A stretch of DNA of 64,000 nt from Emiliania huxleyi CCMP1516 (lineage: Eukaryota): contig NW_005201392.1 in the NCBI RefSeq assembly GCF_000372725.1, forward strand, positions 413,660-477,659, in the 5' to 3' direction. The notes under the pieces were generated by a model that was not told the origin of the DNA, searched no databases, and worked only from the letters and a program-made list of their open reading frames with translations. Made by a program: the position numbers and the translations under genes. Below are positions 1-62,965 of this stretch, one piece after another (position 1 is the first letter of the stretch; every line of letters begins with the position of its first letter).

Positions 1-955
1 CCTCCTAGCCCAACCCTCCTAGCCCAACCCGTCCTAGCCCAACCCTCCTAGCCCAACCCTCCTAGCCCAACCCTCCTAGCCCAACCCTCCTAGCCCAACC
101 CTCCTAGCCCAACCCTCCTAGCCCAACCCTCCTAGCCCAACCCTCCTAGCCCAACCCTCCTAGCCCAACCCTCCTAGCCCAACCCTCCTAGCCCAACCCT
201 CCTAGCCCAACCCTCCTAGCCCAACCCTCCTAGCCCAACCCTCCTAGCCCAACCCTCCTAGCCCAACCCTCCTAGCCCAACCCTCCTAGCCCAACCCTCC
301 TAGCCCAACCCTCCTAGCCCAACCCTCCTAGCCCAACCCTCCTAGCCCAACCCTCCTAGCCCAACCCTCCTAGCCCAACCCTCCTAGCCCAACCCTCCTA
401 GCCCAACCCTCCTAGCCCAACCCTCCTAGCCCAACCCTCCTAGCCCAACCCTCCTAGCCCAACCCTCCTAGCCCAACCCTCCTAGCCCAACCCTCCTAGC
501 CCAACCCTCCTAGCCCAACCCTCCTAGCCCAACCCTCCTAGCCCAACCCTCCTAGCCCAACCCTCCTAGCCCAACCCTCCTAGCCCAACCCTCCTAGCCC
601 AACCCTCCTAGCCCAACCCTCCTAGCCCAACCCTCCTAGCCCAACCCTCCTAGCCCAACCCTCCTAGCCCAACCCTCCTAGCCCAACCCTCCTAGTCCTA
701 TCCTCCTAGTCCAACCCTCCTAGTCTAACTCTCCTAGTCTAACTCTCCTAGCCTAACCCTCCTAGCCTAACCCTCCTAGTCCAACTCCTCCTAGCCCATC
801 CCTCCTAGCCTAACTCCTCCCAGTCCCTCTCTCCTAGTCCATCCCTCTCAGACTAAACGTCCTTGCCCAAAGCTCCTACCTTATCCCTATCAGACCAATT
901 CCTCGAGACCTGTCTTTCTTAACTGTATTTCATCTAACCCTTTTCCTCTTACCCA
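1..955. repeat. Tandem 14-bp satellite (CCTCCTAGCCCAAC)n, telomere-like; degenerates after ~695 and resumes at 1435-1510 after the gap
   Basis: About 50 near-perfect copies are directly visible. The plus strand is C-rich; the minus strand reads TTGGGCTAGGAGGG. Confidence 0.95.
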
Positions 956-5854: not shown

Positions 5855-6622
5855 CCGTGGCTGGAGGCTGGCCTGCCAATCTGGCACGAGCGAATTGACG
5901 CGAGAGATGGATAGACAGTCAACGGCACAGCACCCGCTGCAGAAAGGTTAACGCCATACAGCTGCGCCGCCATCGCTAGTCGCCGGTCTGAGCCAACTTC
6001 CGCTGCTCGTGCACATCACTGCCGTCTCCGCGTTCGGCGGGCACAACGCTGGGCACGGGCCATGTGCAAGCGTGCAACGGGTGGGATAAGGTGGTCCAAC
6101 CCCGACGAGGAGAACGCCGATGGGACCAGTTGAGGACGGACCAGTTCAGGGCGGGCCCGTCCAGGCTCGTTGAGGGCGCGAGAGAGGCGGGGCCCTCGAA
6201 AGGGCTGCCGAGATTAGGCTCAGACTGTTAAGTCTGAACCAGAGTACCACCTTCGTACGTTCCATCTGGGTGCCGCACTTCCCGATCCTGAGCTGTTAGA
6301 AGCACTCATAGTGGTTAGGTTTTCATTCTGCATAAACTTGCAGGGCCGGCCACGAGCCAGTCTCGCGTGTGCCGCACAGAACGTGGACTGTGTTCGCTGT
6401 GTGCGGAGGAGAGACCGCGCCGCGGCGCTGGCCGCTGCCGGCTCCACCACACAACCCGGACGTCCGGGGGCAGCTGCAGAGGCTCCGGCAACACGCCCGC
6501 AGCATTGGCGGCGCGCGTTGGTTGAGTGGTGTTGGGGAGATGGGCCAGCGCTCGAACATGTTTTCACAGAGATGTTTCATACCTGCGTCCTGCGTAATAC
6601 TCATCTCACAGACGCATCACCA

Positions 6623-9600
6623 TCAGCTTGGAGGACGGCACGCGAAGAAGCAGTCGAGGTGCGCAGACGGCTCCGCGTACAGGCAGACGAACGCGCCGTG
6701 CGGCCAGGCGGACCCGTCCTCGTCGGCGATCTGCTGGCCCGGCGCGAGCCACCAGTGCTCGTCGACGCCGCAGTCGCGGAGAGACGGCAGCGAGGCGGGG
6801 TTGCACAGCCCGCGCTCGAGCAGCACCTCGCGCACCCGCGCGCCATGGCTCAGCTCGTCGAGCAGCGAGTTCGGCCCGTCGAAGGCGAGACCGACCCCCG
6901 GGGAGGCGGCGCGGACGCCGCAGACGCGCGAGAGGCCGTCAAAGTAGACAAAGCCGCCGAAGACGACGAAACGCTCCTCGTCTGACTGAGGCACCAGTCC
7001 GGTGCCGCGGGCGCCGGCGAGAGGGAAGGCCCACGCGAAGAGCGTCGCCTCTGCAGGCGCGGCGGCAGCCCACGCGCCTTCGCCCGCCGCCACGGGGTGG
7101 AGCGGCGTGATGCGGCCGAAAGCGGCGAGGCCGTGCTCCGCCACGCGAGAGAGGGCGGCGCTCTCGAGGCCGACCCGGTACGACGCCTTGCCCGCCTCGT
7201 GCGCCAGGCCGATGGCGCCGGGGCGGAGCGGCGAGAGGGTGAGCGAGAGGGGGCCGGGCAGCCTCGGCTCCGCCACCGAGCTCGCACGGAGCGCGCGGCT
7301 GCTCGGCGCCGACGGCAGAGAGTGCGCGAGAGTGTGCCTCGCCTGCGCCTCGCGCTGCATCTCCTCGGCCTTGGCGAGGTGGCGACGCGCCTCGGAGAGC
7401 ACCTTGCGCAGCCCCTCGTCCGCCCCCGCGTGCTCGAGCAGCACCGCGCTCGTCTGGATCTCGGAGTACTCGGCGACAGCAGCCTGTGACCTCGGGTCAT
7501 CTCGGGTCATCTCGGGTCATCTCGGGTCATCTCGGGTCATCTCGGATCATCTCGGGTCATCTCGGGTCATCTCGGGTCATCTCGGGTCATCTCAGGTCCT
7601 CTCGGAGTGCTCGGCGACGGCAACCTCCTCGTCGAGCTTGCGCGTCATGTTTGCGAATCTCGATCTCGGGTGAGATCTCGGGAAATCTCGTCGCGCCTCC
7701 TCGTCGAGCTTGCGCGTCATGTTTGCCGCCGAGACGAGCGACTGGTACTCGAGCCGGAGCAGCTCCAGGTTCGGCCCGCCGCCGCTGCCCAGGCCCGAGG
7801 CCCGCCGTGTGCTCGCCTCGGCCGCAGCGCGCCGCTGGCGCAACACCTCGGACGCCTGTCGGAAGAAGAGCCATCTCTCTGCTCTCTCTCGGCTCTCTCT
7901 CGGCGAGATCCGGGGCGCCTGTCGGAAGTACAGCCACGCCACGCGGGTCAGCGCGCGCCCCTCCACCGTCAGCCCGCCCTCCATCACGCCCGGGTTCGTC
8001 TCGCGCCCGCGACGGTTCCACAGATCGTGCGTCGCCTTGGCCTGCCGCGTCGTCTGCTCGGCGGGGGGCGCCTCGAGGCGGCGGGAGTGGAAGTCGATCT
8101 CCGCCCTCGCGAGTCGCTGCAGCAGCTCCTCCATCCCCGCGGACCTAGGTAGCCCAGTCATTCCTCAACTCATCCATCAAGACGAATGAGACGCAGCCAG
8201 CTCCTCCTCCCCACCGCACCCCTGCTGCAGCTGCTCGTTCTGCCGCTGCGCCTCACGCAGCTCGTCCCTCGCCTGTTCGCAGCTGGAGGCGTGAACAGCG
8301 CCTCTTCAGAGCTGCGCCTCACGCGGCTCGCCCCTCGCCAGCTCCACCTCCCCCTCGAACATGCGCACCTCGTGCGTGTGCCTAAAAGAAGAAACGACCG
8401 CCGGTAAACAAGACACACCGCCGCGCACCTCTGCGCACCGTGCGTGTGTGTGCCTCCGGCCGAGCAGCTCGTAGTTGGAGAGCTCGTCGAGCATCACCTG
8501 GTGCATCGCCCGGTGCATCGTCTACCCCCTGGCGACTCGTGCGGAGATGTGGGGCGCTATGGCGAGATATGGCGAGATCTCCTCGAGTGTGTGTCTCTCC
8601 CGGGCGCATCTCGCCTTGGGGGGTCGAGCCGCCCGTCAGCTCGATCTCGCTTCAATCTCGGGTCATATCAGCTCATCTCGGGTGATCTCGCCTGGTTCTG
8701 CCGCTCCAGCTCCTCCCGCTGCCCCATCTCGAGCAGCAGCGCCGCCTCGAGCTTCTCCTCCTTCTCCGCCGCCTCCGCCTCCAGCCCCTCGCACCGCGCC
8801 CTCCATTCCTGCGCAAGACGCTCCGCCTCCGCCACCTCCGCCCGCCGCCGCTGCTCGAGCGCCTCTGCCCGCTGCTCCGCCTCGGTCGTGAGGGCGGCAC
8901 GCAGCAGCTCGACCTCCGCCCGATGCTCCGCCTGCAGCCGGCCCAGAGCTCCTCCCTCGGGACTCAATCCAACGGCTCCTTCACCCCCTCACTCACTGAT
9001 GGACCGGCCCCTCGCCTGCAGCCGCTCCAGCCGCGCCACGCCGTCGCAGCGCAGCTCCTCCTCCGCCTTCTCCCGCTCCGCCGTCAGCCGGCGCGCCTCC
9101 TCGCGGGACGCCTCCATGGCGGCGAGAGCGCGGTGGGACGCGTCCTGCAGCCTCTGCTCGGTGCTCGCCAGCGCCGCCTCCGACCTCTCCCGCGCCTGTC
9201 GGACATGTCTCGGACATGTCGCGGACGTGTCGCGGACGTGTCCGCCCGCTCGAGGCCTTCTCCGCGCCTCCCTCTCTCGGCGCGACTCCTCCTTGGACGC
9301 CTCCTCCCCCTCGCGCGCCTTGTCTGCTGCAGCCCGCGCCGCCGCCGCCGCCGCCGCCTGCGCCTCCGCCACGGCCTTGGCCGCCGCCATTGCGGAGAAG
9401 GCCTCGCCGACTTCCTCCTGCGCCCTCGCCGCCTTCTCGGCGAGGGCGCGCGCCTGTTCCTCCGCCGCCCGCTGCCGCTGCGCCGCCTCGAGCAGCCTCG
9501 CCTCCTCCTCCCTCCGCGCCTCCTCCAGCGCCGCCTCGTCGGCAGCGCGTTGCGCCTCGGCTGCGTCCGCCGCGGCCCGCCGCTCCTCGAGCTCCTGCTC

Positions 9601-12529
9601 CACCGCTTTTCATCAGTTCATCCATCCGTTGAGAGCTAATCCAGAGCTCGAGCTCCTGCTCCATCATCCCAATCAATTCGTTCAGTGAGTGAGTGAGTGA
9701 TTGAACGGCTTAGTCCTCGAGCTCCTGCTGCATCGCCGCGCGCGTCGCCTCCAGCTCCGCATCCTTTGCCCGCGCCTCCGCCTCCGCCTCCAGCCTCCGC
9801 TTCTCCGCGTCGACCGTCGCCGCCTCCGCCGCGGCGAGCATCGCCGCGTGCGCCTCCTCGCGCTCGCGCTCCATCTCGGCGAGCCTCGCCTTTTGGGGAG
9901 AGAGGGGGAGAGAGGGGAGAGAGGGGGAGAGAGGGGAGAGAGGGGGAGCGCTCGCGCTCCATCTCGGCGAGCCTCGCCTTCTGCTCCGCGGACATCGCCT
10001 CCGCCTCCCGCTGCCGCGCCCGCTCGTCCGCCTCGCGCCTACTCTCGACGCCCCCCCGCGCCCTCTCGACCTCACCTCGCGCGATCTCGACCTCTTCTCG
10101 CCCACATCTCGAGGCCATCTCGACTGTCTCTCGGCTACGTCTCGCGCCGCTCGCGCAGCTCGCGTGCCCTCTCCGCGAACTGCGCCTCGAGGCCCGCCGA
10201 GCCGAAGACCATCGTGCGGCCCAGCTGGTAGTCCTCGTCGGCGAACCCCGCCTGCGCGAGATTCCTCGAGATGCGGTCGAGATGTACCGAGACCTGAGCT
10301 GGCCCTCCTGTCCGCGAGGCCCGCCTGCGTCAGCAGCTTGCGCACCATCGCCTTTCGCTCCGCCGCCGAGCCGCCCCAGGCGAGGCGCTGCTCCTCGAGG
10401 GTGAGTAGGTCGCGAAAGTCGTCGAGCATCGACAAAAAGGTGCGGCGGTACGGGAAGCCCGCCTGCGCGACGCATGCGGGAGATATGGGGAGATGTGGGG
10501 AGATGTGGGGAGATGTGGGGAGATGTGGGGAGATGTGGGGAGATGTGGGGAGATGTGGGGAGATGTGGGGAGATGTGGGGAGACATTGGGCGAAAGGAAG
10601 TTTGCCTGCGCGACGCATGCGGCGGCGAGCACGCCGCACGACTGCAGCTGCGACCGCACCAGAGCCTCGTCGAAATCGAAGGGCGTGCGGCGGTCGTTTG
10701 GCTTGATGCAGCGTATGAAGTGCTGGTCCGTCGCCGCGAGCGTCTCTGTCAGCTCCTTCATCGACGCGGCGAACTGGCGCGCCACCTCGCCGCGGCGAGA
10801 GTCGGCGGCGCGCGCGAGGAAGAGGTCGCGAACAAACGGCCAGCGCGAGGCGGCCATCAGCGCGGGCAGCTTCGCGTGCAGCTCGTCCTTGTTCTTCTTG
10901 AGGAAGGAGCGCGCCACATCGCCGCCGCCCGCGCCGCCGCCGCCCGCCGCGGTGTACGTGACTTGGGCGGAGAAGTGGCGGACGGTGAACGAGGTCGCCG
11001 GCTCCGCCGCTGCCGGCTTGCGGTACGCCGGGTGCTCCGCAAAGCGACGGTGCAGCGCCTCGACCAGCCGCGCGTCGTCGGGAGGCTTCGGCGAGGCGGT
11101 CTCCTCGTTGAGGATGGAGAGTAAGCCCGGCCGAGGGTAGCCTCCGCGCCGCTTTGCGCCCTCAAAGAGCTCGAGGACGGCCGAGTTGTCGGGCGAGTCG
11201 ATCAGCTCGACGCGGATGCCTACGTGCTGAATACGCCAACCTCAGGGCACGAACACGGCATTGTGCAGCGCGTTGAGAGCACCGCGTGAGTACAACGGAT
11301 AGGAAGACAGTGAATACAGCGGAGGACGTGGCCCTCTCGGGCGCTAGTTGGGAGACAAGAATACGTACTCTACTTCTAGACGCGGACGCCTTCAGACACA
11401 AACTCAGCGCGGACCAGCTCGACCGCCTCGGAGACGAAGAGCGCCTGCAGCTTCTCGTTCGCGAAGTTGATCAGCAGCTGCTCGTACCCGTTTCGCTCGA
11501 ACGTCTCCATACCAAAGATATCGAGCAGGCCGACGAAGCTCGAGGGCGGCGCCGCCCCGCCGCCCGCCGCCCCGCCGCCCGCCGCCCCGCCGACGGCGTC
11601 GCCGACGACGGAGGCGAGGGCGAGGTTGGTCGTATCGACGAGCCGCATGAAGAGCAGCTCGTACAGCGCCTGCGCGAGCGCGTCGCGCGCCTCCGCCGCC
11701 TGCTCGCAGCTGCTCGCCATCTCGACAACCTCGCTCGCCGTGTGCAGCGACACCTTGACCAGCGCCGTCTCGAGCTCTGCTGGCCCGACCTGCGTGGCAG
11801 GTGCGTGGCAGGTGTGTGGGAGGGAGGTGCGCGGGAGGCAGGTGTGTGAGGTGTGTGGGACGGAGGTGTGTGGGAGGGGGGGGGTGGGAGGGAGGTGCGT
11901 GGCAAGCGCGTGGGAAGTGCGTTGTGACGGGATGCTTCAGCGTGACAAGCTCTCCCAACCTCGAGCAGCGCCGCCGCGGCCTCGAGCGATGCACGCGAGG
12001 CGGGCGCCACGCGCGCCGCCGCCTCCCCCCGCCCGCGGCTCTGCTCGTCCGCGTCCGCAAAGCTGATGTTGCCTGTTCTCATCCCGCCATTCATCAACCA
12101 CACCTCATAAGACAGAGATGCTCGACCGCAAAGCTGATGTTGCCGACGTGCAGCACGGCGGCGACGCAACGCCAGACGGCGTCTGGTCCGTCGAGCGAGG
12201 CGGCGGCGGCGGTGGCGATGGAGGCGCTCCGGATGCGGTGGACGGGGCGAGGGAAGGAGCCGCGCTTGCGGGTCCCTTCGCCGCCGCTGGCGTGCGAAGC
12301 GGCGGGCGAAGCGGCGGCCGAAGCGACGGGCGAGGGGGCGGCCGAGGAGGCGGCGGGCGAGGCGGCTGCTGCGTGGGTGCGAGCGACAACCAGCGAGCCC
12401 GCCTCCTCGACGGGCGGAGAGGCGGGTGGGTGGAGGGGCAGGTCGAGGATAGACAGAGGCGCGCTGCGCCCGTTGGCCGTGCTGCTGTCGTGCGGTGGCG
12501 GCACGCGGGGCACCGCCCCCTCGCCCCCC

Positions 12530-12561
<32 letters not shown>

Positions 12562-12562
12562 C

Positions 12563-12596
<34 letters not shown>

Positions 12597-26777: not shown

Positions 26778-27965
26778 TCAAGACGCGTGGCCGTCCGCCA
26801 CCTCCTCCGCAGCCGCGCCGCCCGCGGCCCGCTCGCGCGCAACACTCCGGATGCGCTCCGCCCACGCGGCCTGCGCCTGCCTCCGCTCCGCCCACGCGCG
26901 CCGCAGCTCCTCCGTCGCGTCCGCGGCCCGGCCCTCCTGCGTGCCGGGGGTCGCCGCGGCCGCGGCCGCCGCCGACGGCAACGAGGCCGCCGACGATGAC
27001 GCCGCCGCCTGCTGCGGCGGTGGCGCCCCGGACGGCGGCGCGCCGGGAGCCGCGGCGCTCGTGCCGGCGCTCGGGGCGGCGGACGCACCGCCGCCAGCAG
27101 CAGCAGCAGCCGTCCTAGCGTTGGCCGCCGGCCCGGTCGCGCCCGCCCCCGCCCCGGCCCCGGCCACCCCGGCCCCGGCCCCCGTTGCTGCCGCCGCGAC
27201 CACCGCCGCCGACACCGCCTCCTCGGCCGCCTCTTCAGCGTCGGCGACCGCGGCGAGGTGCTGCAGGATCTCGCGCTTGGAGCGGAACAGCTTGGCGCCG
27301 GCCGGGCTGTAGTAGTACCGGTCGCGGGTGCCGACCGAAGCCCCCTCCGCCCTCACCCGCTCGACATACATCCACCCGTCCGGCAGGCCGAGCTCGAGCT
27401 GCAGCGAGGCGGGCACGGGCAGCGCGTCCTCCGGAGCCGTGCCGCTGCGGCGCCGCGCCGCCGGCCGAGCGGGGCGCGAGGGGGCGGGGGCGGTGGAGGC
27501 GGCGGCGGTGGCAGTGGCGATGGCAGCGGAGGAGGTGGAGGATGAGGCGGCGGCCGCGGCGGCCGCGGCGGCCGCGGCGGCCGCGGCCGCGGCCGCGGCC
27601 GAGGCTGCGCGCCCGCCTGGCGGCGGTGAGGGCGGCGAGAGGAGAAGCTGATCCCGTGCCGCGACGAGGGCCGCGAAGGCTTGGGCCGCGTGCGGATCGT
27701 CATTCTTGTCGGGATGAATGCGCACGCACAGCCGGTGGTACGCCTTGTTCACCTCGGCCGCCGCCGGCCTCGCAGAGACCCTGAGCACAGCGCGCGGGCC
27801 GCTCGCTGCCGCGGCGAGCACTCGCGCGACGTGTGCGGCCTCCTTTGCAGCATCACTCTGGCCGAGGGCAATTGCCTGCTCCGCCAGGCTGTGTGCGCGG
27901 CTCCAGTCGCCGGCAGACGCGGCGACGCGGGATTGGGACAGCGAGGAGGCGGCCGCGAGCGTCAT
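26778..27965 (-). CDS. J-domain + methyl-CpG-binding domain (MBD) protein, single open frame
   Basis: J domain: VNKAYHRLCVRIHPDKNDDPHAAQAFAAL. MBD: LPDGWMYVERVRAEGASVGTRDRYYYSPAGAKLFRSKREILQHL. Low-complexity Ala linkers. Confidence 0.88.
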   Translation of the reverse strand: MTLAAASSLSQSRVAASAGDWSRAHSLAEQAIALGQSDAAKEAAHVARVLAAAASGPRAVLRVSARPAAAEVNKAYHRLCVRIHPDKNDDPHAAQAFAALVAARDQLLLSPPSPPPGGRAASAAAAAAAAAAAAAAAAAASSSTSSAAIATATAAASTAPAPSRPARPAARRRSGTAPEDALPVPASLQLELGLPDGWMYVERVRAEGASVGTRDRYYYSPAGAKLFRSKREILQHLAAVADAEEAAEEAVSAAVVAAAATGAGAGVAGAGAGAGATGPAANARTAAAAAGGGASAAPSAGTSAAAPGAPPSGAPPPQQAAASSSAASLPSAAAAAAATPGTQEGRAADATEELRRAWAERRQAQAAWAERIRSVARERAAGGAAAEEVADGHAS

Positions 27966-28254
27966 GACCGCTTGCCCCAGCCGGGCCACGCCACCGCGAG
28001 CACGCCTGTAGCCTCTCGTAGCCTCTCGTGGTTCGCAACGCGGGAAAAGAGAATTTCGATTAAGCACGAGCGAAAAGAGTCACGCGGGTTTGCCGTGCCG
28101 CGTGCGCGCCCGGCCGCCGACCGCGGCGTGTCTCGTTTTCTCAGAGACTATGGAAAGTTCACGTCATGACGGTTAGCCGCTGTCACGACCGTTAGCCGCT
28201 TTCACGACAGCTGGGAGCTGTCATGACAGCAAACGACAGCGACAGTGACACCTA

Positions 28255-33336: not shown

Positions 33337-36300
33337 CTACTCTAGCAGCCGGCCCAGGAACTGCTGCAGCGGCGGCGAGAACTGGCGGCGCTGCAACGCG
33401 CTGCGCAACGCCGCCGTGCCGCCGACGCGCAGCAACCGGCCGGCCCGCTGCAGCTCCGTCTGCCGCGCCAAGGCGACGTCGAGCGCGTCCCTGGCGGCGG
33501 TGCGCTGGCTGCGCAGCTGCCGCTCCGTCGCCTCCATCCGCCGAATGGCACGCTCCTACGGCAAACGTGACGCGCTCGCGGGATGGCCGGGGCGGCAGAC
33601 GAACCCAACCGCGCGCGGGCGGCGGGCAATGCGGCGGCGAGCGCGGGCGGCGGAGGCAGAGGCTGCGTAGGCGGAGGCGGGCGCGGGCCTGCTGCTCAAA
33701 CTGCGCGGGGCCGAGAAATGGGGAGATGTGGGGAGATGTGGGGAGAGATGGGCCTGCTGCTCAAACTGCGCGGGGCCGAGATATGGGGAGATGTGGGGAG
33801 ATGTGGGGAGAGATGGGCCTGCTGCTCAAACTGCGCGGGGCCGAGATATGGGGAGATGTGGGGAGATGTGGGGAGAGATGGGCCTGCTGCTCAAACTGCG
33901 CGGGGCCGAGATATGGGGAGATGTGGGGAGATGTGGGGAGAGATGGGCCTGCTGCTCAAACTGCGCGGGGCCGAGATATGGGGAGATGTGGGGAGATGTG
34001 GGGAGAGATGGGCCTGCTGCTCAAACTGCGCGGGGCCGAGCCCCTCGACACCCTCCCCCGACGCGGGCCACGCGTAGTCCGCACCTATTTGCGGCGCGGC
34101 ATGGCACGTGTCGGGCGAATGCCTGGAGGCGGCCTGGCCGGCCGCGACGCCGAGTCGGCGCCGCGCGCGCGAAGGGCCGAAGCGAGCGCGCGCAGCTTCT
34201 CGCCCGCCTCCTCCTCGGCCGCGGAGAGCGCCTCGACGCGCCCGAGCACGCGCCCATGCAGCCGGCGCAGCCGGCGCGTCAAGTAGGCCCGCCGCTCCTG
34301 CGGCGAACTTGGACGAGCTTCGCCGAGCTTCGCCGAGATTCGCCGAGCTTCGCCGAGCTTCGCAAGCATGGGTGCGAGATTCGCCGAGGGGTGGGTCAAG
34401 AGCGCCCCGCGCTGCGCTCGCCGCCGCGAGGGGAGTGCAAGAGGCTGCCAGTGCAGTGGCTGTGGGGGGGTAGTGGCTGTGGGGGGGTAGTGGCTGTGGG
34501 GGGGTAGTGGCTGTGGGGGGGTAGTGGCTGTGGGGGGCGAGAGTACGGGTGCGGCTGGGGCATCCTACACCGGCCGCGCCTCTTCGCGCGCCGCGTCGGC
34601 GTCGGCCCCAACAGCAGGACCGAGGAGCCACTCGAGGTCCCCCTCCTCCTCCTCCCACTCCCCCTCCCCCTCCCCCTCCCCCGCCTCCTCCTCCCCCGCC
34701 TCGCCCTTCACCTCCCCGCCCTCGCCTTTCAACGCCTCCCCCAGCGCCACCGCCGCCGCCCCCTCCCCCGCCACCGCCGCCTCCTCTGCCCCCTCCTCCG
34801 CCGTCGCCGCATCCTCTGCCCCCTCCCCGGCGCCAGAGGAATCGACGGCCTCCGCCTCCGCCGCCGCCGCCGCCTCCGCCGCCTCTCCTACCCCCCGCCC
34901 CTCCGCCGCCCCTCGCCGCGCCCTCCGCCCCGCCCTCTCGGCGACCTCCCCAATCTCCGCCTCGAGCTCCGCGGCGCTCAGCGGCGAGACAAGCCCTTCC
35001 CACCCCACGGCCCCTCCCTCACGCGCGCCGGCATGCCCTCTCCTCACCCCCCAACCCGCACCCTCGCCGCCCGCCTCGCCGCCGCCCCTCCCGCCGCCAG
35101 CCGCCCAGCGGCGGCGGCGGCGCGGCGGCGGCGGCAACGGCCGGCCCGCCGCCTCCCTCTCCGCCTGCAGCCAAGCGTCGGCGGCCCCCTCGAGCCTGCG
35201 CCGTGGAGTCCAAGGGGCGTCAGGGCACGTGTCGCGCGTTGGAGTCGGAGCACCGCGTCGCTAGGCACGTGATGAACGCCTCCCCCGTACCTGTATCTCC
35301 CCTGTATCTCCCCCGCACCTCGCCTATCTCTCGCACGGTGAGGTCCCATAGGCGAGATACGACCACCTCCCCCGTACCTCGCCTGTATCTCCCCTGTATC
35401 TCGTCCCAGGTGCTGGCCTACGTGACGAACATGTATGGCAACCACCCCCTTGCGTCCCCACATGGCAACCACCCCCTTGGATCCTCATCCCGCAGGTGAA
35501 GCGCGCCTTCATGGACTCCCTCCTATGGCAACCACCCCCTTGCGTCCCCACATCTCAGGGCGGGAGGAGCGCGGCCGCGTGCCGTGAGGAGACGGACCAC
35601 CGCGCGACGAGGAGGGAGAATACGGCGCCCCAGCCCCGACCCTAGCCCACACAGGTAGGAAGGGCGGGCACCCCTAAGACTATAGCCGCAACCCCAACCC
35701 TAAGCCTAAGCCTAACCCTAGCCCACACAGGTAGGAAGGGCGGGCACCCCTAAGACTATAGCCGCAACCCCAACCCTAAGCCTAAGCCTAACCCTAGCCC
35801 ACACAGGTAGGAAGGGCGGGCACCCCTAAGACTATGGCCGCAACCCCAACCCTAAGCCTAAGCCTAACCCTAGCCCACACAGGTAGGAAGGGCGGGCACC
35901 CCTAAGACTATGGCCGCAACCCCAACCCCAAGCCTAAGCCTAACCCTAGCCCACACAGGTAGGAAGGGCGGGCACCCCTAAGACTATGGCCGCAACCCCA
36001 ACCCCAAGCCTAACCCTAACCCTAGCCCACACAGGTAGGAAGGGCGGGCACCCCTAAGACTATGGCCGCAACCCCAACCCTAAGCCTAAGCCTAACCCTA
36101 GCCCACACAGGTAGGAAGGGCGGGCACCCCTAAGACTATGGCCGCAACCCCAACCCCAAGCCTAAGCCTAACCCTAGCCCACACAGGTAGGAAGGGCGGG
36201 CAGTGGGAGGCGGAGGCGGATGGCTGCTCCAACGGAGTGCGGGCGAAGGGCGGGCCCGTGTCCTGCCGAGCACGACTCTGAAGACTCTTCTCTAGGCATC

Positions 36301-36829: not shown

Positions 36830-38946
36830 GGGAGAGAGAGAGAGAGAGAGAGAGGGAGGGGGGGGAGGGGGGGGGGGGGGAGAGAGAGCGAGAGGAGCGA
36901 GAGAGGGAGCGAGAGAGGGGGGGAGGTGCTGCTGCGGAGGAGGGGGGCTGGCCGCTAGTCTCGGCTAGATCTCGGCTACATCTCGCCCAAGTAGTCCTCT
37001 TCGTCCGGCAAGTCCGACGTCTCGTCGATCACTCGCCTGCCTCACGAGTGCACCCCACTCAGGACCGCCACCACATGCGGGCTGTGAACTCACGCGCAGG
37101 CCGTGAATACACACGCGAGCTGCGAAAGCGGCGGAGCGCGGTTCAAGACGGCTGGGGAGATCTGGGGAGATCTGGGGAGATCTGGGGAGCACGGTTCAAG
37201 ACGGCTGCATGCGCGTCCTCTCTGTAACACCGCTCGGCACTACGCGGACCTGCACTCCGCATCTAGGCCTCGACATCTGGGGAGATCTGGGGAGATGCGG
37301 GGAGATCTTTCCGCATCTAGACTCCACGCGCAGCGCGCGCGAGAAGAGCTCTTTCCTCCACTGCTGCTCCACCGCCATCCAGCGCTCGAAAGTGCCTAGA
37401 AGGCTCCAAGAAGGTTCCTAGAAGGCTCCTGCGGCTCCACCGCCATCCAGCGCTCGAAAGTGCCGACACGGGGGTCGTCATCTCCCGCGCCTGCGGGACA
37501 TGTCTCGGACATGTCACGGACGTGTCGTGGAGATGTCCCCGGGGCGCCCCTGGCACCGAGGAGTCCGCCACGCGTTTCTCCTCCCGCCAGCCGCCCGCCG
37601 CTGCCCCCTCCCTCCTCGCCGCCTCCTCCCTCCTCGCCGCCTCCCCCCCCCCAGTCCCGCTGCCGGCTCCGCCACGCTAGCTCGGCGGCGTCGCGCCTAC
37701 TCTAGCGCAATCTCGGGTAACCTCGCGCAATCTCGGGTAACCTCGGTACCCACGGCGCCAGCTCGGCGGCATCGCGCCTGATCGGGTCCATGTGCACTAC
37801 ATCCTGGCTCTCTCGGCTATCTCTCGGCTGTCTCTCGGCTGCCTCTCGGCTGCCTCTCGGCTTCCTCTCGGCTGTCCCTCGGCTGCCTCTCGACTGCCTC
37901 TCGTCTGTATCTCGCGCCGCAAAAAGTCAGTCGCGGCGGGGTTGCGGCGACCCCATCGCTCGGCGGAGCGCTGCGCCTCGGGCATGCGCCGGTACGCCTC
38001 CAGCGCCTCCCGCCGCCGCCGCGCCGCCTCCTCGCGCCTCGCGTCCTCGCGTTGCATCCTACCGACAAAACGGCGCAGGCAAACGCGTCCGTTGATCGGC
38101 CACGGGCAGACAGACGCCTCTGCCGGGCGCTGTGAGGCAGTGCTCGGCGGCGGTGCGAGGCGGTGTGCTGGCGCGGAGGGGGGAGGAGGAGGCGCGTCGT
38201 GGCGGGGCGGTGTAGTGAGCAGGCAGGGCGGGCGCTGCAGTTCCTGTACCTGGCGACCACCAGCTCGGCGCTGTCGCCCTCTGCAAGCTCACGGCGCATC
38301 CGAGCTAGCTCTTCGTCGCCCTCCTCTGCCGCCTCCTCCTCCGTCGCCGCCCCCGCCTCCTCTGACGACTCATCCGCCCTCCTCGCCTCCTCAGCCTTCT
38401 CCGACATGTCCTTCTCCTCTGCCACCGCCGCCACCGCCGCAGGCGCCTGCCCTGCCGCCGGTGCGCTCACGGTGTCCTTCCCGCCGTCGCCTATCGCCGC
38501 TTCGCCGCGAGGCGCCTCATGCGCCGCGCGATCCGCCTCGACGCGTGGAGGGTCCGCTGGTGTGGTTGGCGGCCGCAGCAGAGCGCCCACCTCGTCGCGG
38601 CCGCGGAGCCAGGCAAGCGGCCGCCAAGCGCACACGGCCGGGCTGGCGCGGGCCCGGACAGCAGCGCGGCGCAGGGAGGGTATTCGGCGAGCCGAGGGCG
38701 GGTCAGCTTCGCGCTGCCGCGCGTACTCCTTCCACGAGGTGCCGCTCGCGTCGCGCCTACGCGCAATGGAGCACAAGATCTGGCAAGCGGAGCCAGAGGG
38801 CCGGCGGAAGCGTTTTGACTGGAAACGCACGTGGCGTCCTGATCGACGAGCGCGACGCGCGAGGAGCGGGGTGCGACACGGGGCGCGCGAGGAGCATGCT
38901 GGACGAGCCCGGCGACGACGCACAGACCCGCCGCGAAGCGCAGCAT
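33337..38946 (-). CDS. Multi-exon gene(s) of unknown function with an N-terminal targeting-like peptide and helical/coiled-coil segments; exon structure uncertain
   Basis: MLRFAAGLCVVAGLV start; exon-like frames such as EELARMRRELAEGDSAELVVARY, QQWRKELFSRAL, WLPYMFVTYAST, RRAYLTRRLRRL and a final ..QQFLGRLLE*, separated by satellite introns. Confidence 0.5.
33686..34040. repeat. 65-bp tandem repeat (30 bp exon-end copy + GGGGAGATGT satellite); 6 copies of the 30-mer
   Basis: GGCCTGCTGCTCAAACTGCGCGGGGCCGAG at 33686, 33751, 33816, 33881, 33946, 34011. Confidence 0.95.
35640..36202. repeat. 76-bp minisatellite, ~7.4 copies, containing CCCTAA/GCCTAA telomere-like hexamers
   Basis: Unit CCTAGCCCACACAGGTAGGAAGGGCGGGCACCCCTAAGACTATRGCCGCAACCCCAACCCTAAGCCTAAGCCTAAC. 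Confidence 0.95.
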
Positions 38947-40592: not shown

Positions 40593-42735
40593 ATGGTCCT
40601 CCACTCGCTGTCTCGTGTCGCCCCAGGGCTGCTCGCGCTGCGGCCGAAGCTGACCGCCGATTCGCTGAAGCCCGGCAGGCTCCTGCGCGTGGGCAGCGCC
40701 GCCGGCCACGACGTGCATGCCGCGGTGCTGTGCTGGTGCGGCGGCGTGGCGTTCGCCGCGCCTATTGCCGGCTGGCCGCACGCGCCCGCCGTCATTTGCG
40801 GCGCGGTTCCAGCTGAGGCGGCCGAGAGCGCCGTGCTCCTTGACGACAGCCTGGGTGCCTCGCCGGACGCTGTGGACGCGGCGGCCGAGGAGGGAGGCGT
40901 GTCGGTCATCGACTGCTTTGGCGCGCCGCTCGACAGCCCGCCGACCTCGCTGCGCGACGGGTCGAGGAGGCGCCTGCCTCTGATGGCGGTCTGCCCGGGG
41001 CAGGCGGACCTCCAGCCCATCTGCGCCAGCCTCCACACAGGCACAGGCGCCACCTGCCTTTTCGCCCTCGGGCGTGTCAGCAGCAGCCCTTGCACGCGCA
41101 CCGCCACCACCGCGGGTCTGGCGCCGACACCGCCGCCGCCATCGGCCGCAGGCACCGCCGCCATCGACGTCCTCACCCCCGTGGGGCGAGGCCAGGTGTG
41201 GCGCGCACTCTCTGTCCGCCTCCTCCGCACCTTTTCGCCCGCACCGCCGTTTGCGCCGCCCCGCCCACCCCGCCACCGCCTGCCGCGCCCCCCGGTCCAA
41301 TCAGCTATCAATTATGGCTCATTGCTCATGCATCCGCGCCCCCCAGTCCATGCTGCTGATGGGCGAGCGGGGCACCGGCAAGTCCGCCGTTGCCATCGAC
41401 GCGGTGATTGCGCAGGCGGCGCGAGACACACACACACACACTCACTCCCACATCGCTCGCCCACGCGCACTGGGCCTTGCACTTTGAATGCCGTGGGGCT
41501 CCCGTCGTCTAGACGTCGAGTCGCGAGGGCCAGCCTGGCCCTCGCCCCACCACCTTGTGTGTGCGTGGAGAAGTGTACCTGACCTCACCTCAGGCGGCGC
41601 GGCCGCTGCACTGCGTGGTTGCTCTTTCCGACCCGGGCGCCGAGGCAGCCTCGGACCTTGCCCCCCCCCCCCCTCGGTTGACGGCGTTGACGGCACGACG
41701 GCTGTGCTCAGGCTGCCCGCAGCCTCGCGGAATGGATCTGCGAGCGCGCGGATCGGCAGGTGTCGCTCTCGGCTTGCGGAGGCGCCTTTCCTCCTCCCAC
41801 GATCCTGGCAGAAGACGCGCCTGTCAGCACACGTCCACGTCCACCCGCTGCCTCCCGCTCGCCACAACTCAAAAGACATCGCACTCTCACTCCTCGACCA
41901 CCTCGTGCGCGGCGTGCAGCCTCCCCGCCTTCCCTCTTCCTCCCGCTCTCCCTCCTCTTTCTCTTGCTCCTCCTCCGCCCGCGCGCCTCCCGCCGCTCCG
42001 CTCCTCTCCACCGTTTCGCGCGCATCCCCCCCCCCCCCCCCCTTCCCCGGACAGCTCCACCACGCCCGCCCATGCCTTGCGCCCCTGCCTCCTCCCCCCT
42101 GCTTCTCAGGCCCCCTCCCGCCTCCGCTCCGGTCGCGCCTCACCCTGGTCGCCCCCAGAGGCGGCAGCGCGTCGGAGAGAGCCCTCTTCCTGGACCTTTC
42201 CTGGACCCTTCCTGGACCCCTTCCTGGACCCTTCCTGTAGGCGGCAGCGCGTCGGAGGGAGCGCTCGTCGCGGCGGCGGCTTGCGCGGTGGGCGAGAGGG
42301 TGCGCGACGGCGGCGGCCACGCCCTTGTGGTGGTCGACGGTTGGCGCGGCCTAAGCGCGGTGTGGGACCAGGCGGCGGCGGCCCTCACCTCCCCCCCCAC
42401 GAGCGCACCGGGAGAGGGGGGCGGAGGAGAGGGAGGCGGGGGAGCAGGAGACGGCGGCCGCGGCGGCGGTGCCGGCGCGGCGCATACGGCGGTCGCCGCG
42501 GCGGTGCGTCGGCGGCTCGAGGCTGCGCAGCGGGAGACCTCGGCGGAGCAGCGCGTCTTCTACGGCGCGCTGCTGCAGCGCGCGGCGCAGCTCGCCCCCT
42601 CGCTCGGCGGCGGCTCCCTCTCCCTCATCGCCGTCGCGGAGCAGCTGCCCCGGCCTTGCGGCGAGGCGCACGCGGCGCCGTTGGCGGCGGGTGGCGACGG
42701 CGGTGGCGAGGGCCAAGGCGGCGGCGGCGGCGGCC

Positions 42736-42776
<41 letters not shown>

Positions 42777-44323
42777 GATGTGGCTTTCCCGCTCGATCGG
42801 TTCTCGGACCGGCCCCGCTCGCAGCGCTTGCGGCTCGAGGCGCTCGCTGCGCGGGGCGTGCCGCTGACTGCCGCAACGCTCCGCGTCATCGGGATCCCGC
42901 CTCCTGCCTCCCCTTTTGGCGCTCCTGTCACGCGGCTGCCGGGCGGTGGGGGCGAGGGCGAGGGCGAGGGCGAGGGCGAGGGTGAGGGCGAGGGCGAGGG
43001 TGCGGGCCAGGGCGCGGCCGCAGCGAGCAGCGCGGCGTTGTTCGCCGCGCGAGCCAGTTGGTCCCACATTGACCAGCTGCAGTCGCTCGCAGACGGCGCC
43101 GCGCCCTAGAAGCGGAAGATCTCCCCATATCTCCCCGTATCTCCCCGTATCTCGTGCCCTAGAAGCGGAAGGGGGAGCCGTGGAGTCCGACGGGCGCTCG
43201 AGAGGACGCGTATTCGGCTGCACTCGACCGCTGTATTCGTCGCCCGTGTACCCACGCGGTGCTCTGAGCACACCGCACGAGACCGTGTTCACACCCTGGC
43301 CTCGGCGTGTTCGGCTGCACTCGACCGCTGTATTCGTCGCCCCTGTAGCCACGCGGTGCTCTGAGTACACCGCACGAGACCACCCTCCCGCCCCCGCCTC
43401 GGCGTGTTCGCAGCATAGGCCACGATGCGCTGCTACCGCACCACCCACGGGACTGAACCCGCACTGGATTCGACCACTCTGGAGGTATGGTAGGCCACGT
43501 TCAGCTGCTTGCCTCCGAGTGGGCCCGCGGGGTGCGGCCGGCGCTGCGGCCAGCCGAGTCGATCGCGCGCGTCGGCGTTGGGTCGGACACGGCGAAGCGT
43601 CCACGGCCAGCATCGGCGGCGATGTTGCGGCTATCGGTGGGGCACGCCTCTGGCGACAGCGTGTGTGGGCCGTTTTCTGCCACGTTTTCTTCTTCTTGTC
43701 GGCAGGCGGGGTTGCGGCTCGAGCTGGCGCAGGCGGAGGATTTGCCGGCCGCTCTCGGCGACGCGCACACGCGGCTGCAACAGACGCGCGCACGCGCACT
43801 GGCGGCGGTGCTCGGCACGCACCGGGAGGGGGTGCCGCTGGCTCTGTCGCAGCAGGTGGCTGCCTGGACCCTTGCCCCAGCACCTTATGTGTGTGGAGAA
43901 GCTCACTTGACCCTACCTAGCAGGTGGCGCTGCTCCTCGCGATCCTCGACGGGCGCGCCGCCGTCGCCCTCCGCACTCCCGTCACGAGCCCATCGACCTC
44001 GCCGGCCCTGCCTCGCCCTACAGACGCTTCGGCCACAAATGAATGAATGAATGAATCAGTCCATTTTGCCGCGCCCCAGGCGCCTCGACCACCTTGCCAC
44101 CGCCGCGCCCGCCACCGCTGCCGAGGAGGTGGCGGGTTTGCTCGATAAGCTGCGCGCCTCGCCCACCGCCGCCGCCGCATTGCGCGCCGTCGACGAGAGC
44201 GAGGAGCTGGCGCCGCCGGAAGAGTCGGCTCTGCTCGCCGCCATCGCCGAGCACATGCCGCGTGCGGGCGGGCGTGGTTTGTTTGCCTCGTGGCAGACGA
44301 CTGCGATTGCGACTCGGAGTTGA
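40593..44323 (+). CDS. Divergent F1-ATP synthase alpha-subunit-like protein, multi-exon
   Basis: VIDCFGAPLD; QPICASLHTG/TAAIDVLTPVGRGQ; LLMGERGTGKS.AIDAVIAQ; GERVRDGGGHALVVVD; VFYGALLQRAAQL..GGGSLSLI; SLADGHVQL..GVRPAL...SIARVG; LRLELAQ. Confidence 0.85.
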
Positions 44324-62100: not shown

Positions 62101-62269
62101 CCTTCCCTCGCCTCGCTTTCCGCCGCTTCCCCTTCTTTGGCGCCTACGTGGAGATCGCCGAGATCGCCCCTTTCGCCGAGAGAAGCGGGGGGAGGGCAGG
62201 CCACGGTGCACACCTCTCTCCTCCCGACTAGTCCTGGGTCATCTGGACGCTCCTCGGCTCATCTAGGCC

Positions 62270-62965
62270 AATCTCGAGGAAGGAGCAGCTCGTCTCTCGC
62301 CCGAGATACAACCGAGATACAGCCGAGATACAATCTCGAGGAAGGAGAAGCTCGCGTCTCTCGCCCGCGTCGACCACTCACGGTCTACCCTCGACTGTAT
62401 CTCGGCTGTATCTCGGCTCCGCTCAGCTCCTCTCGGCTCCTCTCGGCTCCTCTCGACTCCTCTCGGCTCCTCTCGGCTCCTCTCGGCTCCTCTCGGCGCA
62501 CCTCCTCGGCGTCATCGCCGCCGCTCTTCTTGGGCTGCACCGCCTGTCCACGCCAATGCGGTCTGATTAGACGCAGCCCACACACCGCGCGCCCTTCCCC
62601 CCTGCTCTGACGCCGTCGCCTTCTCCTCCTCCGCCGCCTCGCCCGCCGCAGCCTTGTCCTCGGCTGCCTCGCCACTACCTCTCGCCGCGCCTGTGAACAG
62701 CGTCTCTTCACGGCTGGTGTGAGTGGGCGATGCTTCGCTCTCCCCGCGCCCTGCGCACCCGCGCCGCCGCCCGCGGCGGCTTCCGCCCCCTTGCCGCCGC
62801 CCTCGCTGCCGCCCTCCTCCTCCTCCTCCTCCTCCTCCTCTCCCTTTCCTTTCGCCTTGCCCTTGCCCTTGCCCCGCTTCCTTCCCATGCCCTTCCCGCC
62901 CTTGGCCACCCGAACCGCCGGCTTGGCCGCCGGCTTGGCCTCCCCCTCGGCGCCAGCCTGCAGGG
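62270..62965 (-). CDS. Exons of a low-complexity K/E/A/G-rich protein; limits unknown
   Basis: AGAEGEAKPAAKP..KGKGKAKGKGEEEEEEEEE, AAEDKAAAGEAAEEEK and QPKKSGGDDAEE, separated by introns, one satellite-filled; upstream intron contains CCCTAA/CCCTGA repeats. Confidence 0.45.

What the first reader, a model, noticed from the sequence alone, without database searches (positions are those of the whole stretch)
7624..12144. Satellite introns bracketed by exon duplications that supply the splice sites (myosin)
Seen: direct repeats flank short inserts at 7624-7654/7696-7726 (31 bp identical), 7853-7873/7916-7936 (21 bp, 2 mismatches), 9587-9603/9647-9663, 9860-9892/9948-9980 (33 bp), 10461-10479/10604-10622 and 12055-12073/12126-12144. 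In the clearest cases the duplicate contains AG|G(C), so one copy gives the GC donor and the other the AG acceptor, and splicing restores the protein exactly. At 7625-7696, for example, one MTRKLDEE copy is removed. Inference: an ongoing intron-gain process, in which a staggered break or tandem duplication is filled with 10-11-mer satellite. This differs from classic introner transposons and could help explain the GC-donor excess.
Basis: partly seen in the sequence, partly recalled or inferred. Interest (0 to 1): 0.8.

Follow-up and report, generated by a model that had tools for sequence, protein, structure and literature searches.

The report
Introns born from exon-duplicating repeat insertions
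In a myosin gene of a marine alga, most introns begin or end with a copy of the neighbouring exon and many are cut out exactly in transcript data, which likely means they were born when short repeat DNA was patched into staggered DNA breaks, a possibly large source of new introns that transposon screens would miss.

Summary
The window holds a minus-strand, 20-exon myosin gene of an Emiliania huxleyi-like haptophyte. Transcript contigs support 13 of 19 introns. In 11 of 19 the ends match the flanking exon at score 10 or more, against 4 of 342 mismatched pairs. Across the window, 10 of 37 arrays of 10-11-mers are bracketed by repeats scoring 15 or more (controls 0 of 1284, 0 of 87). Independent DNA contigs carry the inserts they cover. 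A distant homologue is intronless. A second alga has four introns at other positions, also edged by exon copies but filled with telomere-like repeats; one is absent from a near-identical contig. Corrections: the spliced unit is 7484-7696, not 7625-7696; several fillers are not satellite; the copy often supplies only one splice site for certain; ongoing gain in this species is not shown. Fillers lack terminal inverted repeats, shared ends and a fixed duplication length, so these are not classic introners. Best reading: staggered-break repair with templated repeat filler, as proposed for Daphnia, but with longer duplications (13-35 nt against 4-12). The enzymology is inferred.

The parts
6623..14167 (-). 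Myosin heavy-chain gene model, 20 exons, 19 introns, 1782 aa: motor domain, Ala/Glu/Arg-rich coiled-coil-like region, C-terminal domain with no Pfam match that is conserved in homologues
   Evidence: Model translates without an internal stop; Myosin_head PF00063 E 2.9e-30 on exon 10606-11217; collinear with P0001 at 36-48% identity. Start codon and 6 introns are predicted.
7484..7696 (-). Intron 19, 213 nt, GAG|GC..CAG|GC; compound: degenerate filler, a buried copy of the exon-exon junction, then a 10-mer array
   Evidence: Joint 7481>7695 in X3, X9, X10; splice option; array 7491-7605, 11.5 copies, 40 nt shorter in L001/L002
7600..7654 (-).
7856..7918 (-). Intron 18, 63 nt, CAG|GC..CAG|GC; duplicate 7853-7873/7916-7936 (19 of 21), 11-mer filler
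   Evidence: Joint in 4 of 4 runs; both copies in L001 and L002
8145..8219 (-). Intron 17, GT donor; 5' end copies the next exon (17 of 22)
   Evidence: Compound joint 8145>8311 with 24 letters between, 3 of 4 runs; boundaries inferred
8273..8338 (-). Intron 16; 5' end copies the next exon (26 of 28), non-satellite filler
   Evidence: same compound joint
8382..8453 (-). Intron 15; 5' end copies the next exon (10 of 11)
   Evidence: Joint in 4 of 4 runs
8498..8691 (-). Intron 14, 194 nt, degenerate 10-mer satellites, weak end match (score 6)
   Evidence: Joint in 4 of 4 runs
8932..9015 (-). Intron 13 (predicted); 12-nt exact duplicate across the cut
   Evidence: no joint seen
9196..9267 (-). 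Intron 12; 8-nt duplicate, 11-mer satellite
   Evidence: Joint in 3 of 4 runs
9595..9724 (-). Intron 11 (predicted, GA donor, boundaries uncertain); three copies of a 16-19-nt exon segment at 9586, 9647 and about 9715; non-satellite fillers
   Evidence: X1 contig 9394-9819 reads through unspliced; present in L002 with one change in the middle copy
9890..9977 (-). Intron 10 (predicted), AAG|GC..AAG|GC; 33-nt exact duplicate 9860-9892/9948-9980, purine/pyrimidine 9-10-mer filler; a second cut 5 nt away fits as well
   Evidence: removal keeps the frame and matches P0001/P0158 across the site; L002 holds the filler (19 nt shorter) and the lower copy only; no joint seen
10039..10147 (-). Intron 9; 8-nt duplicate, degenerate 11-mer filler
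   Evidence: Joint in 3 of 4 runs
10252..10324 (-). Intron 8; decayed duplicate (17 of 20)
   Evidence: Joint in 2 of 4 runs
10463..10605 (-). Intron 7, 143 nt, CAG|GC..CAG|GC; 19-nt exact duplicate, 10-mer array 10478-10583
   Evidence: Joint in 2 of 4 runs
11220..11389 (-). Intron 6 (predicted); 5' end copies the next exon (12 of 14); filler is 69% like window 43194-43315 over 123 nt
   Evidence: transcript pieces stop at 11217-11221
11790..11959 (-). Intron 5 (predicted), GT donor, weak end match (score 5)
   Evidence: retained in X3 record 14
12073..12143 (-). Intron 4, 71 nt, TCG|GC..CAG|GC; 19-nt exact duplicate, 52-nt non-satellite filler that supplies the A of the acceptor
   Evidence: X3 record 14 joins 12054 to 12126; no independent DNA holding the insert was seen
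12767..12852 (-). Intron 3 (predicted), no end match beyond AG|GC
   Evidence: retained in X3 record 15
13079..13155 (-). Intron 2; decayed copy of the next exon (24 of 30)
   Evidence: Joint in 4 of 4 runs
13463..13702 (-). Intron 1, 240 nt, dinucleotide microsatellites, 7-nt end match
   Evidence: Joint in 3 of 4 runs
18766..18928 (+). Outside the myosin: 17-nt exact duplicate around an 11-mer array, CAG|GC..CAG|GC; predicted intron
19217..19361 (+). 33-nt duplicate (30 of 33) of an exon end plus donor around a 10-mer array, buried in a longer predicted intron (19244-19399, read by eye)
37133..37207 (.). 16-22-nt duplicate around a 37-nt 10-mer filler, no splice option inside the duplicate
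37366..37464 (-). 31-nt exact duplicate around an 11-mer filler, TCG|GC..TAG|GC; predicted intron
37679..37779 (-). 20-nt duplicate around a 10-mer filler, CAG|GC..TAG|GC; predicted intron
42159..42262 (+). 19-24-nt duplicate around an 11-mer filler, GAG|GC..TAG|GC; predicted intron
43103..43171 (+). 16-nt exact duplicate that spans the stop codon of the open frame 41691-43109, 37-nt 10-mer filler, no splice option: an insertion that would need no splicing
62269..62367 (+). About 35-nt duplicate around a 27-nt 11-mer filler; GA-donor options only

Best explanation
These are spliceosomal introns edged by copies of the exon they interrupt, and they likely arose when a staggered DNA break in an intronless exon was repaired by filling in both overhangs and patching in a short stretch of repeat DNA. 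Step 1 (inferred): two nicks 13-35 nt apart on opposite strands open the exon. Step 2 (inferred): both overhangs are copied, which gives the direct repeat that is seen. Step 3 (inferred): before joining, one end is extended on a repeat that is common in the genome (10-11-mer satellites here, telomere-like 6-mers in the second alga), probably primed on 2-4 matching bases; other fillers are non-repetitive. Step 4 (shown for the transcript-supported introns): a G|GC, G|GT or G|GA in the first copy or at its edge serves as donor and an AG in front of the matching base of the second copy as acceptor, so splicing removes one copy plus filler and restores the protein. Step 5 (inferred): insertions that cannot be spliced persist only where they do no harm (past a stop codon, inside an intron). 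Step 6 (shown as patterns): intron copies then decay at all three codon positions, arrays change in length, and repeat hits at one site bury earlier copies. Because the donor is taken from a G+C-rich exon, it is usually GC.
For: Own-flank matches exceed mismatched pairs: 11 of 19 against 4 of 342 at score 10 or more. Arrays of 10-11-mers bracketed at score 15 or more: 10 of 37 (8 of 29 outside the myosin), against 0 of 1284 cross pairs and 0 of 87 other arrays. Exact removal in transcript contigs of four studies. The duplicated string is contiguous only in the intronless state (12073, 8273, 9890, 13079). Homologue L003 is genomic (non-coding flanks and a further gene upstream) and encodes 1874 aa in one piece. 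Second alga: four introns in L006 at sites where the window gene and L003 have none, each with an exon copy at an end (13 of 13; 16 of 17 plus 4; 15 of 21 for the 122-nt intron; 14 of 15), and the 122-nt intron is absent in L005, whose aligned blocks are mostly 97-99% identical; P0164 and P0158, 91-92% identical proteins called as single frames, cross all four sites. Three of 8 duplicates outside the myosin have no splice option, so the mutation does not depend on splicing. Mismatches between copies fall 11/13/10 on codon positions 1/2/3. The array runs 2-4 nt into a duplicate at 6 of 11 sites (no control run). Literature: staggered-break neointrons with nested repeats in Daphnia (PMC4202315, passages); small tandem duplications form at breaks with overhangs (PMC8355091, passages).
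Against: No break, enzyme or template was observed; steps 1-3 and 5 rest on sequence scars. No empty allele was found in the window's species: all 10 introns overlapped by L002 are shared (exon differences 8 of 2294, intron 4 of 966). Five of 19 introns score 7 or less. L005 looks chimeric at its 5' end, and I could not tell DNA from partly spliced RNA for L005/L006; intron loss in L005, L003 or P0164 is not excluded. DNA behind P0158/P0164 was not seen. Splice sites were chosen inside the ambiguous zone by requiring G[CTA]..AG, which inflates the donor-equals-exon-start count. Fillers show no clear copy of local flanks beyond neighbouring arrays, unlike many locally templated repair insertions. 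Yenerall and Zhou warn that conserved introns can carry short repeats as often as new ones (PMC3443670, passages); no set of conserved introns was available as a control.
Confidence: 0.55

Rival explanations
1. Target-primed reverse transcription: a LINE-type endonuclease and reverse transcriptase nick the exon and copy short repeat-bearing RNAs or truncated element tails, leaving target-site duplications of variable length. The result would be an introner of an unusual kind rather than plain repair.
For: Variable, long duplications and an array flush against one end with a few matching bases fit this chemistry (established knowledge, recalled). Fillers fall into a few satellite families shared across the window. 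Fillers at 37155 and 43119 are both 37 nt, both with 16-nt exact duplicates, same 10-mer family in opposite orientation. The filler of intron 11220-11389 resembles a dispersed repeat.
Against: No whole-length match among the 19 introns or to the rest of the window, only interior satellite matches; 1 of 153 filler pairs is alike at both ends, and that by in-phase satellite; no poly(A) tails seen; filler types are very diverse. The whole genome was not available to look for a parent.
Confidence: 0.2
2. Plain tandem duplication (Rogers model): an exon segment with AG|G was duplicated, spliced at once, and its middle was later replaced by satellite growth and decay.
For: Demonstrated mechanism (PMC3443670, passages). 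Some introns carry long decayed exon copies (13079: 24 of 30; 8145: 17 of 22) and buried copies (7600-7654; 9647). Array length varies between haplotypes. The 65-nt unit at 33685-34040 shows tandem amplification of duplicate plus satellite.
Against: Exact 16-33-nt copies end abruptly against 27-155 nt of unrelated filler; decay would not leave the ends untouched and erase the middle. A bare 16-19-nt duplication is too short to splice and shifts the frame until filler arrives.
Confidence: 0.12
3. The introns are old, and exon sequence was copied into their ends later, by repair on a spliced cDNA template or by duplications that straddle an existing splice site.
For: The 55-nt copy of the spliced junction at 7600-7654 is what a cDNA patch would leave; 19217/19329 and the 31-nt pair at 7624/7696 do straddle an existing donor, so some events hit introns already there.
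Against: No shared position with L003, L006 or the frames P0158/P0169/P0170 where they align; the L005/L006 difference; duplicates with filler also occur away from splice sites. Two successive insertions explain 7484-7696, and the copy ages fit (22 of 25 inside, 31 of 31 outside).
Confidence: 0.1
4. Assembly artefact, or insertions peculiar to the sequenced strain that are not spliced.
For: Satellite-rich draft-quality sequence; two inserts were not seen in independent DNA and two not in spliced form.
Against: L001/L002 hold both copies at 7624, 7853 and 8245 and no missing intron over 6565-9945; the same architecture occurs in another organism; 13 joints restore one frame.
Confidence: 0.03

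Closest known systems
Neointrons of Daphnia pulex attributed to repair of staggered double-strand breaks (PMC4202315; passages read)
   Same: [quoted passage not shown]
   Different: Daphnia repeats shared with an exon are 4-12 bp (33 cases among 90 neointrons) and fillers are AT-rich; here 13-35 nt, G+C-rich satellite or telomere-like fillers, mostly GC donors, and the scar marks most introns of one gene.
Introners / introner-like elements that co-opt splice sites from the target-site duplication (Symbiodinium, Polarella glacialis classes 4-6, 8, 10, 14; Chrysochromulina sp.; bioRxiv 10.1101/2020.10.14.339549 part 1 of 4 read; 10.1101/2022.06.06.494994 passages)
   Same: One or both splice sites come from duplicated exon; GC and GA donors; many gains per gene.
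   Different: Those have fixed 4- or 8-nt duplications, families alike over their whole length, often terminal inverted repeats. Here lengths vary, fillers share only interior satellite, and inverted-repeat scores do not exceed the control. The 2022 screen filters out introns alike only through interior microsatellites.
Intron gain by tandem genomic duplication (Rogers model; as reviewed in PMC3443670, passages)
   Same: A duplicated AG|G gives donor in the first copy and acceptor in the second, with exact restoration.
   Different: There the whole intron is exon copy; here 27-155 nt of foreign filler lies between short copies.
Interstitial telomeric sequences inserted at repaired breaks (recalled; interstitial TTAGGG tracts are reported in the coccolithophore Calcidiscus leptoporus, PMC13518057, passages; haptophyte telomerase makes TTAGGG, PMC3622300, passages)
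   Same: Telomere-like filler with a duplication of the site (L005, L006).
   Different: Applies to the second alga only; its repeats are degenerate, lie C-rich on the sense strand in 4 of 4 introns and sit inside coding exons. The passages seen do not link such tracts to intron origin.

Membership tests
Spliceosomal GC-AG / GT-AG introns | Exact removal from transcripts at G[CT]..AG | tested here: met
   13 of 19 modelled introns match joints or pieces; all read GC..AG or GT..AG; 6 of 19 remain predicted
Staggered-break-repair neointrons (Daphnia type) | Direct repeat of adjacent exon sequence at the opposite intron end, above chance | tested here: met
   11 of 19 against 4 of 342; 10 of 37 against 0 of 1284 and 0 of 87
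Staggered-break-repair neointrons (Daphnia type) | Recent gain: empty allele in the same or a sister species | tested here: inconclusive
   Not met in the window's species (10 of 10 introns shared with L002); met for one intron between L005 and L006 and for four against P0164/P0158, with caveats on molecule type and direction
Staggered-break-repair neointrons (Daphnia type) | Nested repeats from repeated events inside young introns | tested here: met
   7600-7654, 9647-9663, 19329-19361 and L006 intron 1254-1412
Staggered-break-repair neointrons (Daphnia type) | Repeats more frequent at gained than at conserved introns | not testable with these tools
   No conserved intron was found in the gene, and no whole genome was on hand
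Staggered-break-repair neointrons (Daphnia type) | Origin by break repair shown experimentally | not testable with these tools
   Needs induced breaks or mutation-accumulation lines
Introners (DNA-transposon type) | Family of introns alike over their whole length | tested here: not met
   19 introns against each other and against the 64-kb window: interior satellite matches, and one 69% match over 123 of 170 nt; not tested genome-wide
Introners (DNA-transposon type) | Fixed short target-site duplication | tested here: not met
   Exact or near-exact lengths 16, 16, 17, 19, 19, 19, 20, 21, 31, 33, 33, 35
Introners (DNA-transposon type) | Terminal inverted repeats or shared termini | tested here: not met
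   18 fillers: score mean 1.9, maximum 4, control mean 2.4; 1 of 153 pairs alike at both ends
Tandem genomic duplication introns (Rogers model) | Whole intron is a rotated copy of flanking exon | tested here: not met
   Fillers of 27-155 nt match flanks over 10 nt or less, except two that match neighbouring arrays
Non-LTR retrotransposon (TPRT) insertions | Variable-length target-site duplication | tested here: met
Non-LTR retrotransposon (TPRT) insertions | Filler is the 3' end of a parent element or RNA, with constant polarity | not testable with these tools
   No whole genome on hand; no parent in the window

The most novel reading that the evidence does not exclude
Haptophytes make most of their introns without a transposon, by a self-feeding process: long staggered breaks are patched with whichever short repeat is most abundant in that lineage (10-11-mer satellites in Emiliania/Gephyrocapsa, telomere-like repeats added by telomerase or copied from them in another alga). 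Each new intron becomes a template for the next, the donor is inherited from G+C-rich exons, and this, not later GT-to-GC drift alone, produced the GC-AG majority. In the second alga the C-rich telomere-like strand would bring a branch-point-like CTAAC motif with it.
Probability: 0.3. Interest if true: 0.9.

Novelty: new variant of a known kind. Interest (0 to 1): 0.72.

Why it matters
Where new introns come from is a long-standing question. Transposons are held to be the only mechanism able to explain bursts of gain (PMC12130899, passages), while repair-type gains were counted as a handful in a 2012 review (5 unambiguous cases, PMC3443670 Table 1) and as 33 short exon repeats among 90 Daphnia neointrons. 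Here the scar is long enough to read and to date by divergence between the copies, marks most introns of one gene, recurs in other genes of the window, and appears again with another filler in a second alga. Screens built on intron-to-intron similarity discard such cases. It also offers a direct test of why 56-65% of E. huxleyi donors are GC (PMC4028052, passages), which that paper puts down to genome G+C content without a mechanism of origin.

Tried and rejected
No whole genome was on hand, so the genome-wide count against shuffles could not be run; the 64-kb window was used instead. A search with the motor exon among proteins of 358-2000 aa found no near-identical full-length protein (6 hits, best 45%), so 9890-9977 and 9595-9724 stay unconfirmed. 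The representative search (246 hits at E 0.001) gave only fragments of this gene read from unspliced DNA (P0008-P0010). One search had a merging fault that counted the 65-nt array five times (41 rows); the corrected run is (37 rows), and its figures are used. Duplicate length modulo 3 was looked at but the extended lengths are too soft to use. L007 was set aside (weak matches on both strands); L004 is the same gene as L003; L001 and L002 share their differences from the window and were counted as one haplotype. Bias of intron copies towards G/C (15 of 103 A/T sites against 8 of 235 G/C sites; raw 15:8, p 0.21) includes edge artefacts and is not used as evidence. Literature: ten full-text searches gave no listing on exon-duplicate-edged or satellite-filled intron gain in haptophytes. 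The 2013 E. huxleyi genome paper was not seen; I recall, unverified, that it notes 10-11-bp tandem repeats in introns, and its supplement may bear on novelty. No supplements of any paper were read. Passages only: PMC3488318, PMC4028052, PMC3443670, PMC4202315, PMC8355091, PMC12130899, PMC13518057, PMC11347835, PMC5583752, PMC3622300, bioRxiv 2022.06.06.494994 and 2024.05.26.595999; part 1 of 4 of bioRxiv 2020.10.14.339549.

Full report
Setting. The region lies in a minus-strand myosin gene of a G+C-rich eukaryote. A 20-exon model from 14167 to 6623 reads 1782 aa without a stop, has a myosin motor domain and is collinear with P0001. The only named relatives of the neighbouring gene at 15300-16226 are three Emiliania huxleyi proteins at 74-79% (3 of 41 hits). 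Together with a GC-donor majority and heavy intron retention, both described for E. huxleyi (PMC4028052, passages), this places the window in or near that species (inference).

The observation. Five of six pairs are exact as written; the sixth is off by one base and has a third copy. Contigs of four runs from four studies (one on record as RNA, three guessed) were laid on 6000-16000. Eleven listed joints and one pair of pieces give 13 introns, all reading GC..AG or GT..AG on the minus strand. At 7853/7916, 10461/10604 and 12055/12126 exactly one copy plus filler is removed. At 7624/7696 the removed unit is 213 nt (7484-7696): it holds a 55-nt copy of the spliced junction, 30 of 30 nt of the upstream exon followed by 22 of 25 nt of the downstream exon. 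The simplest reading is two events at one site, an older gain that copied the downstream exon and a younger duplication across its donor. The junctions at 9860/9948 and 9586/9647 were not among the 15 of 82 joints shown and remain predicted.

It is a property of the gene and the window. Scoring each intron's ends against its own flanks gives 8 or more in 14 of 19, 10 or more in 11 of 19, 15 or more in 7 of 19; pairing introns with other introns' flanks, which keeps the splice consensus, gives 14, 4 and 0 of 342. The copies range from exact (33 of 33) to worn (24 of 30), and mismatches fall evenly on codon positions (11/13/10), as expected if the intron copy is free of protein constraint. Across the window, 10 of 37 arrays of 10-11-mers are bracketed by a repeat scoring 15 or more, 8 of 29 outside the myosin, against 0 of 1284 cross pairs and 0 of 87 other arrays. 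Five of those 8 offer a G|G[CA]..AG cut; three do not, and of these one spans a stop codon (43103) and one is buried in a longer predicted intron (19217). So the mutation is duplicate plus filler, and spliceability looks like a filter on top of it (inference).

Not an artefact where it can be checked. L001 and L002, unspliced contigs from a metagenome collection, match the window at 8 differences in 2294 exon bases and 4 in 966 intron bases, carry all 10 introns they overlap and both copies at 7624, 7853 and 8245, and differ in array length. They do not reach 10461 or 12055. They also show that these introns are not polymorphic between the two haplotypes seen.

Not shared with homologues. L003 is a genomic contig whose homologue (P0001, 99% over 1874 aa in one piece) has no intron. 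L005 and L006 come from another organism (92% to P0007; identity unknown, an alga by homology). In the 438 codons of L006 lie four phase-0 introns at sites where the window gene and L003 are continuous, and the two window introns in that stretch have no counterpart. All four are edged by exon copies (13 of 13; 16 of 17 plus 4; 15 of 21; 14 of 15 with a buried third copy) and filled with telomere-like 6-mers, C-rich on the sense strand in 4 of 4. The 122-nt intron of L006 is absent from L005, whose aligned blocks are mostly 97-99% identical, and L005 has the 3' end of an intron where L006 is continuous. Proteins 91-92% identical to the L006 product, called as single frames on contigs up to 13.6-14.8 kb, cross all four sites, while sister frames P0169 and P0170 end in apparent intron read-through at positions where the window gene is continuous. 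Caveats: L005 appears chimeric upstream, DNA or RNA origin is not known for L005/L006, the DNA behind those proteins was not seen, and loss cannot be excluded; gain is the shorter explanation.

Who supplies the splice sites. The donor dinucleotide equals the start of the next exon in 18 of 19 introns and the upstream exon ends in AG in 15 of 19; donors are GC 16, GT 2, GA 1, close to the supply in the coding sequence (G|GC 328, G|GT 51, G|GA 121). The sites were chosen inside ambiguous zones, which flatters this count. In 12 of the 14 introns scoring 8 or more the cut lies within 3 nt of one end of the duplicate, so one site is native exon and the other is formed where filler meets the second copy.

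Mechanism. Fillers (27-155 nt) have no terminal inverted repeats, no shared ends and no whole-length family in the window, and duplication length varies, which argues against DNA-transposon introners with their fixed 4- or 8-nt duplications. Sharp edges between exact copies and foreign filler argue against plain tandem duplication. The arrays run 2-4 nt into a duplicate at 6 of 11 sites (no control), which hints at priming on a repeat template. Staggered-break repair with templated filler fits best (0.55): it is the model for Daphnia neointrons, nested events included, and overhang fill-in is a shown source of small tandem duplications in mammalian cells. Retrotransposon-type target priming (0.2) makes similar scars and cannot be excluded without the genome; two equal-length fillers with equal duplications and one filler like a dispersed repeat keep it alive. 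Tandem duplication with later satellite growth (0.12), copying into old introns (0.1) and artefact (0.03) follow. Shown: the copies, their excess over controls, exact splicing for 13 introns, presence in independent DNA for those covered, unshared positions. Inferred: the break, the enzyme, the template, the direction of change and the link to the GC-donor excess.

Novelty. The kind is known; the variant differs in duplication length (13-35 nt against 4-12), in satellite or telomere-like filler, in GC donors and in apparent prevalence. Ten full-text searches showed no listing that describes it in haptophytes; the 2013 genome paper and all supplements were not seen. Three unchecked notes of this scan describe similar scars in other genomes; they are leads, not support. 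Verdict: real, a new variant of a known kind, interest 0.72.

Noticed in passing
L006:456-1412 and L005:218-1370: Introns of a second alga are filled with degenerate telomere-like 6-mers, C-rich on the sense strand, edged by exon copies; one intron has a GT donor in L006 and GA in L005; one 122-nt intron is present in L006 only, and its 5' end looks like a mosaic of downstream and upstream exon pieces.
   Followed up: partly
window 33685-34040: A 65-nt unit made of a 33-nt exon-like segment plus a 10-mer satellite is repeated 5.5 times at 99% identity: a duplicate-plus-filler unit amplified in tandem.
   Followed up: no
window 7600-7696: The buried AG|GT could act as an alternative donor that adds 24 codons in frame without a stop, or as a two-step splice point; only the full 213-nt skip was seen.
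   Followed up: partly
window 6626-7483: The C-terminal domain has no Pfam match but 246 relatives among cluster representatives, some in tandem copies and some on other myosins: an undescribed domain family.
   Followed up: partly
window 11220-11389 and 43194-43400: A dispersed repeat of about 120 nt, once as intron filler and twice in tandem near 43200-43400 (69% alike); raised depth in transcript contigs suggests more copies.
   Followed up: partly
duplicates in window 7484-13155 and 19217-19361: Intron copies tend to change from A/T to G/C relative to the exon copy (15 of 103 against 8 of 235 sites; soft count).
   Followed up: partly
window 12144-12766: A 623-nt exon puts a long Gly/Ala/Ser/Pro-rich insertion into the motor domain that P0001 lacks; transcript contigs cover parts of it, and a listed joint 12226>12343 with 14 letters between is unexplained.
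   Followed up: no
window 26781-28079: An open frame with weak DnaJ and methyl-CpG-binding domain matches.
   Followed up: no
window 1-847, 35639-36202, 16787-16927, 17578-17763: Long tandem arrays: a 14-mer x60, a 76-mer x7.4 with telomere-like hexamers, and 42-44-mers at two places.
   Followed up: no
L005:74-217: A ketosynthase-like fragment is joined to the myosin homologue at a telomere-like repeat, probably a misassembly (recognised from the translation, not searched).
   Followed up: no
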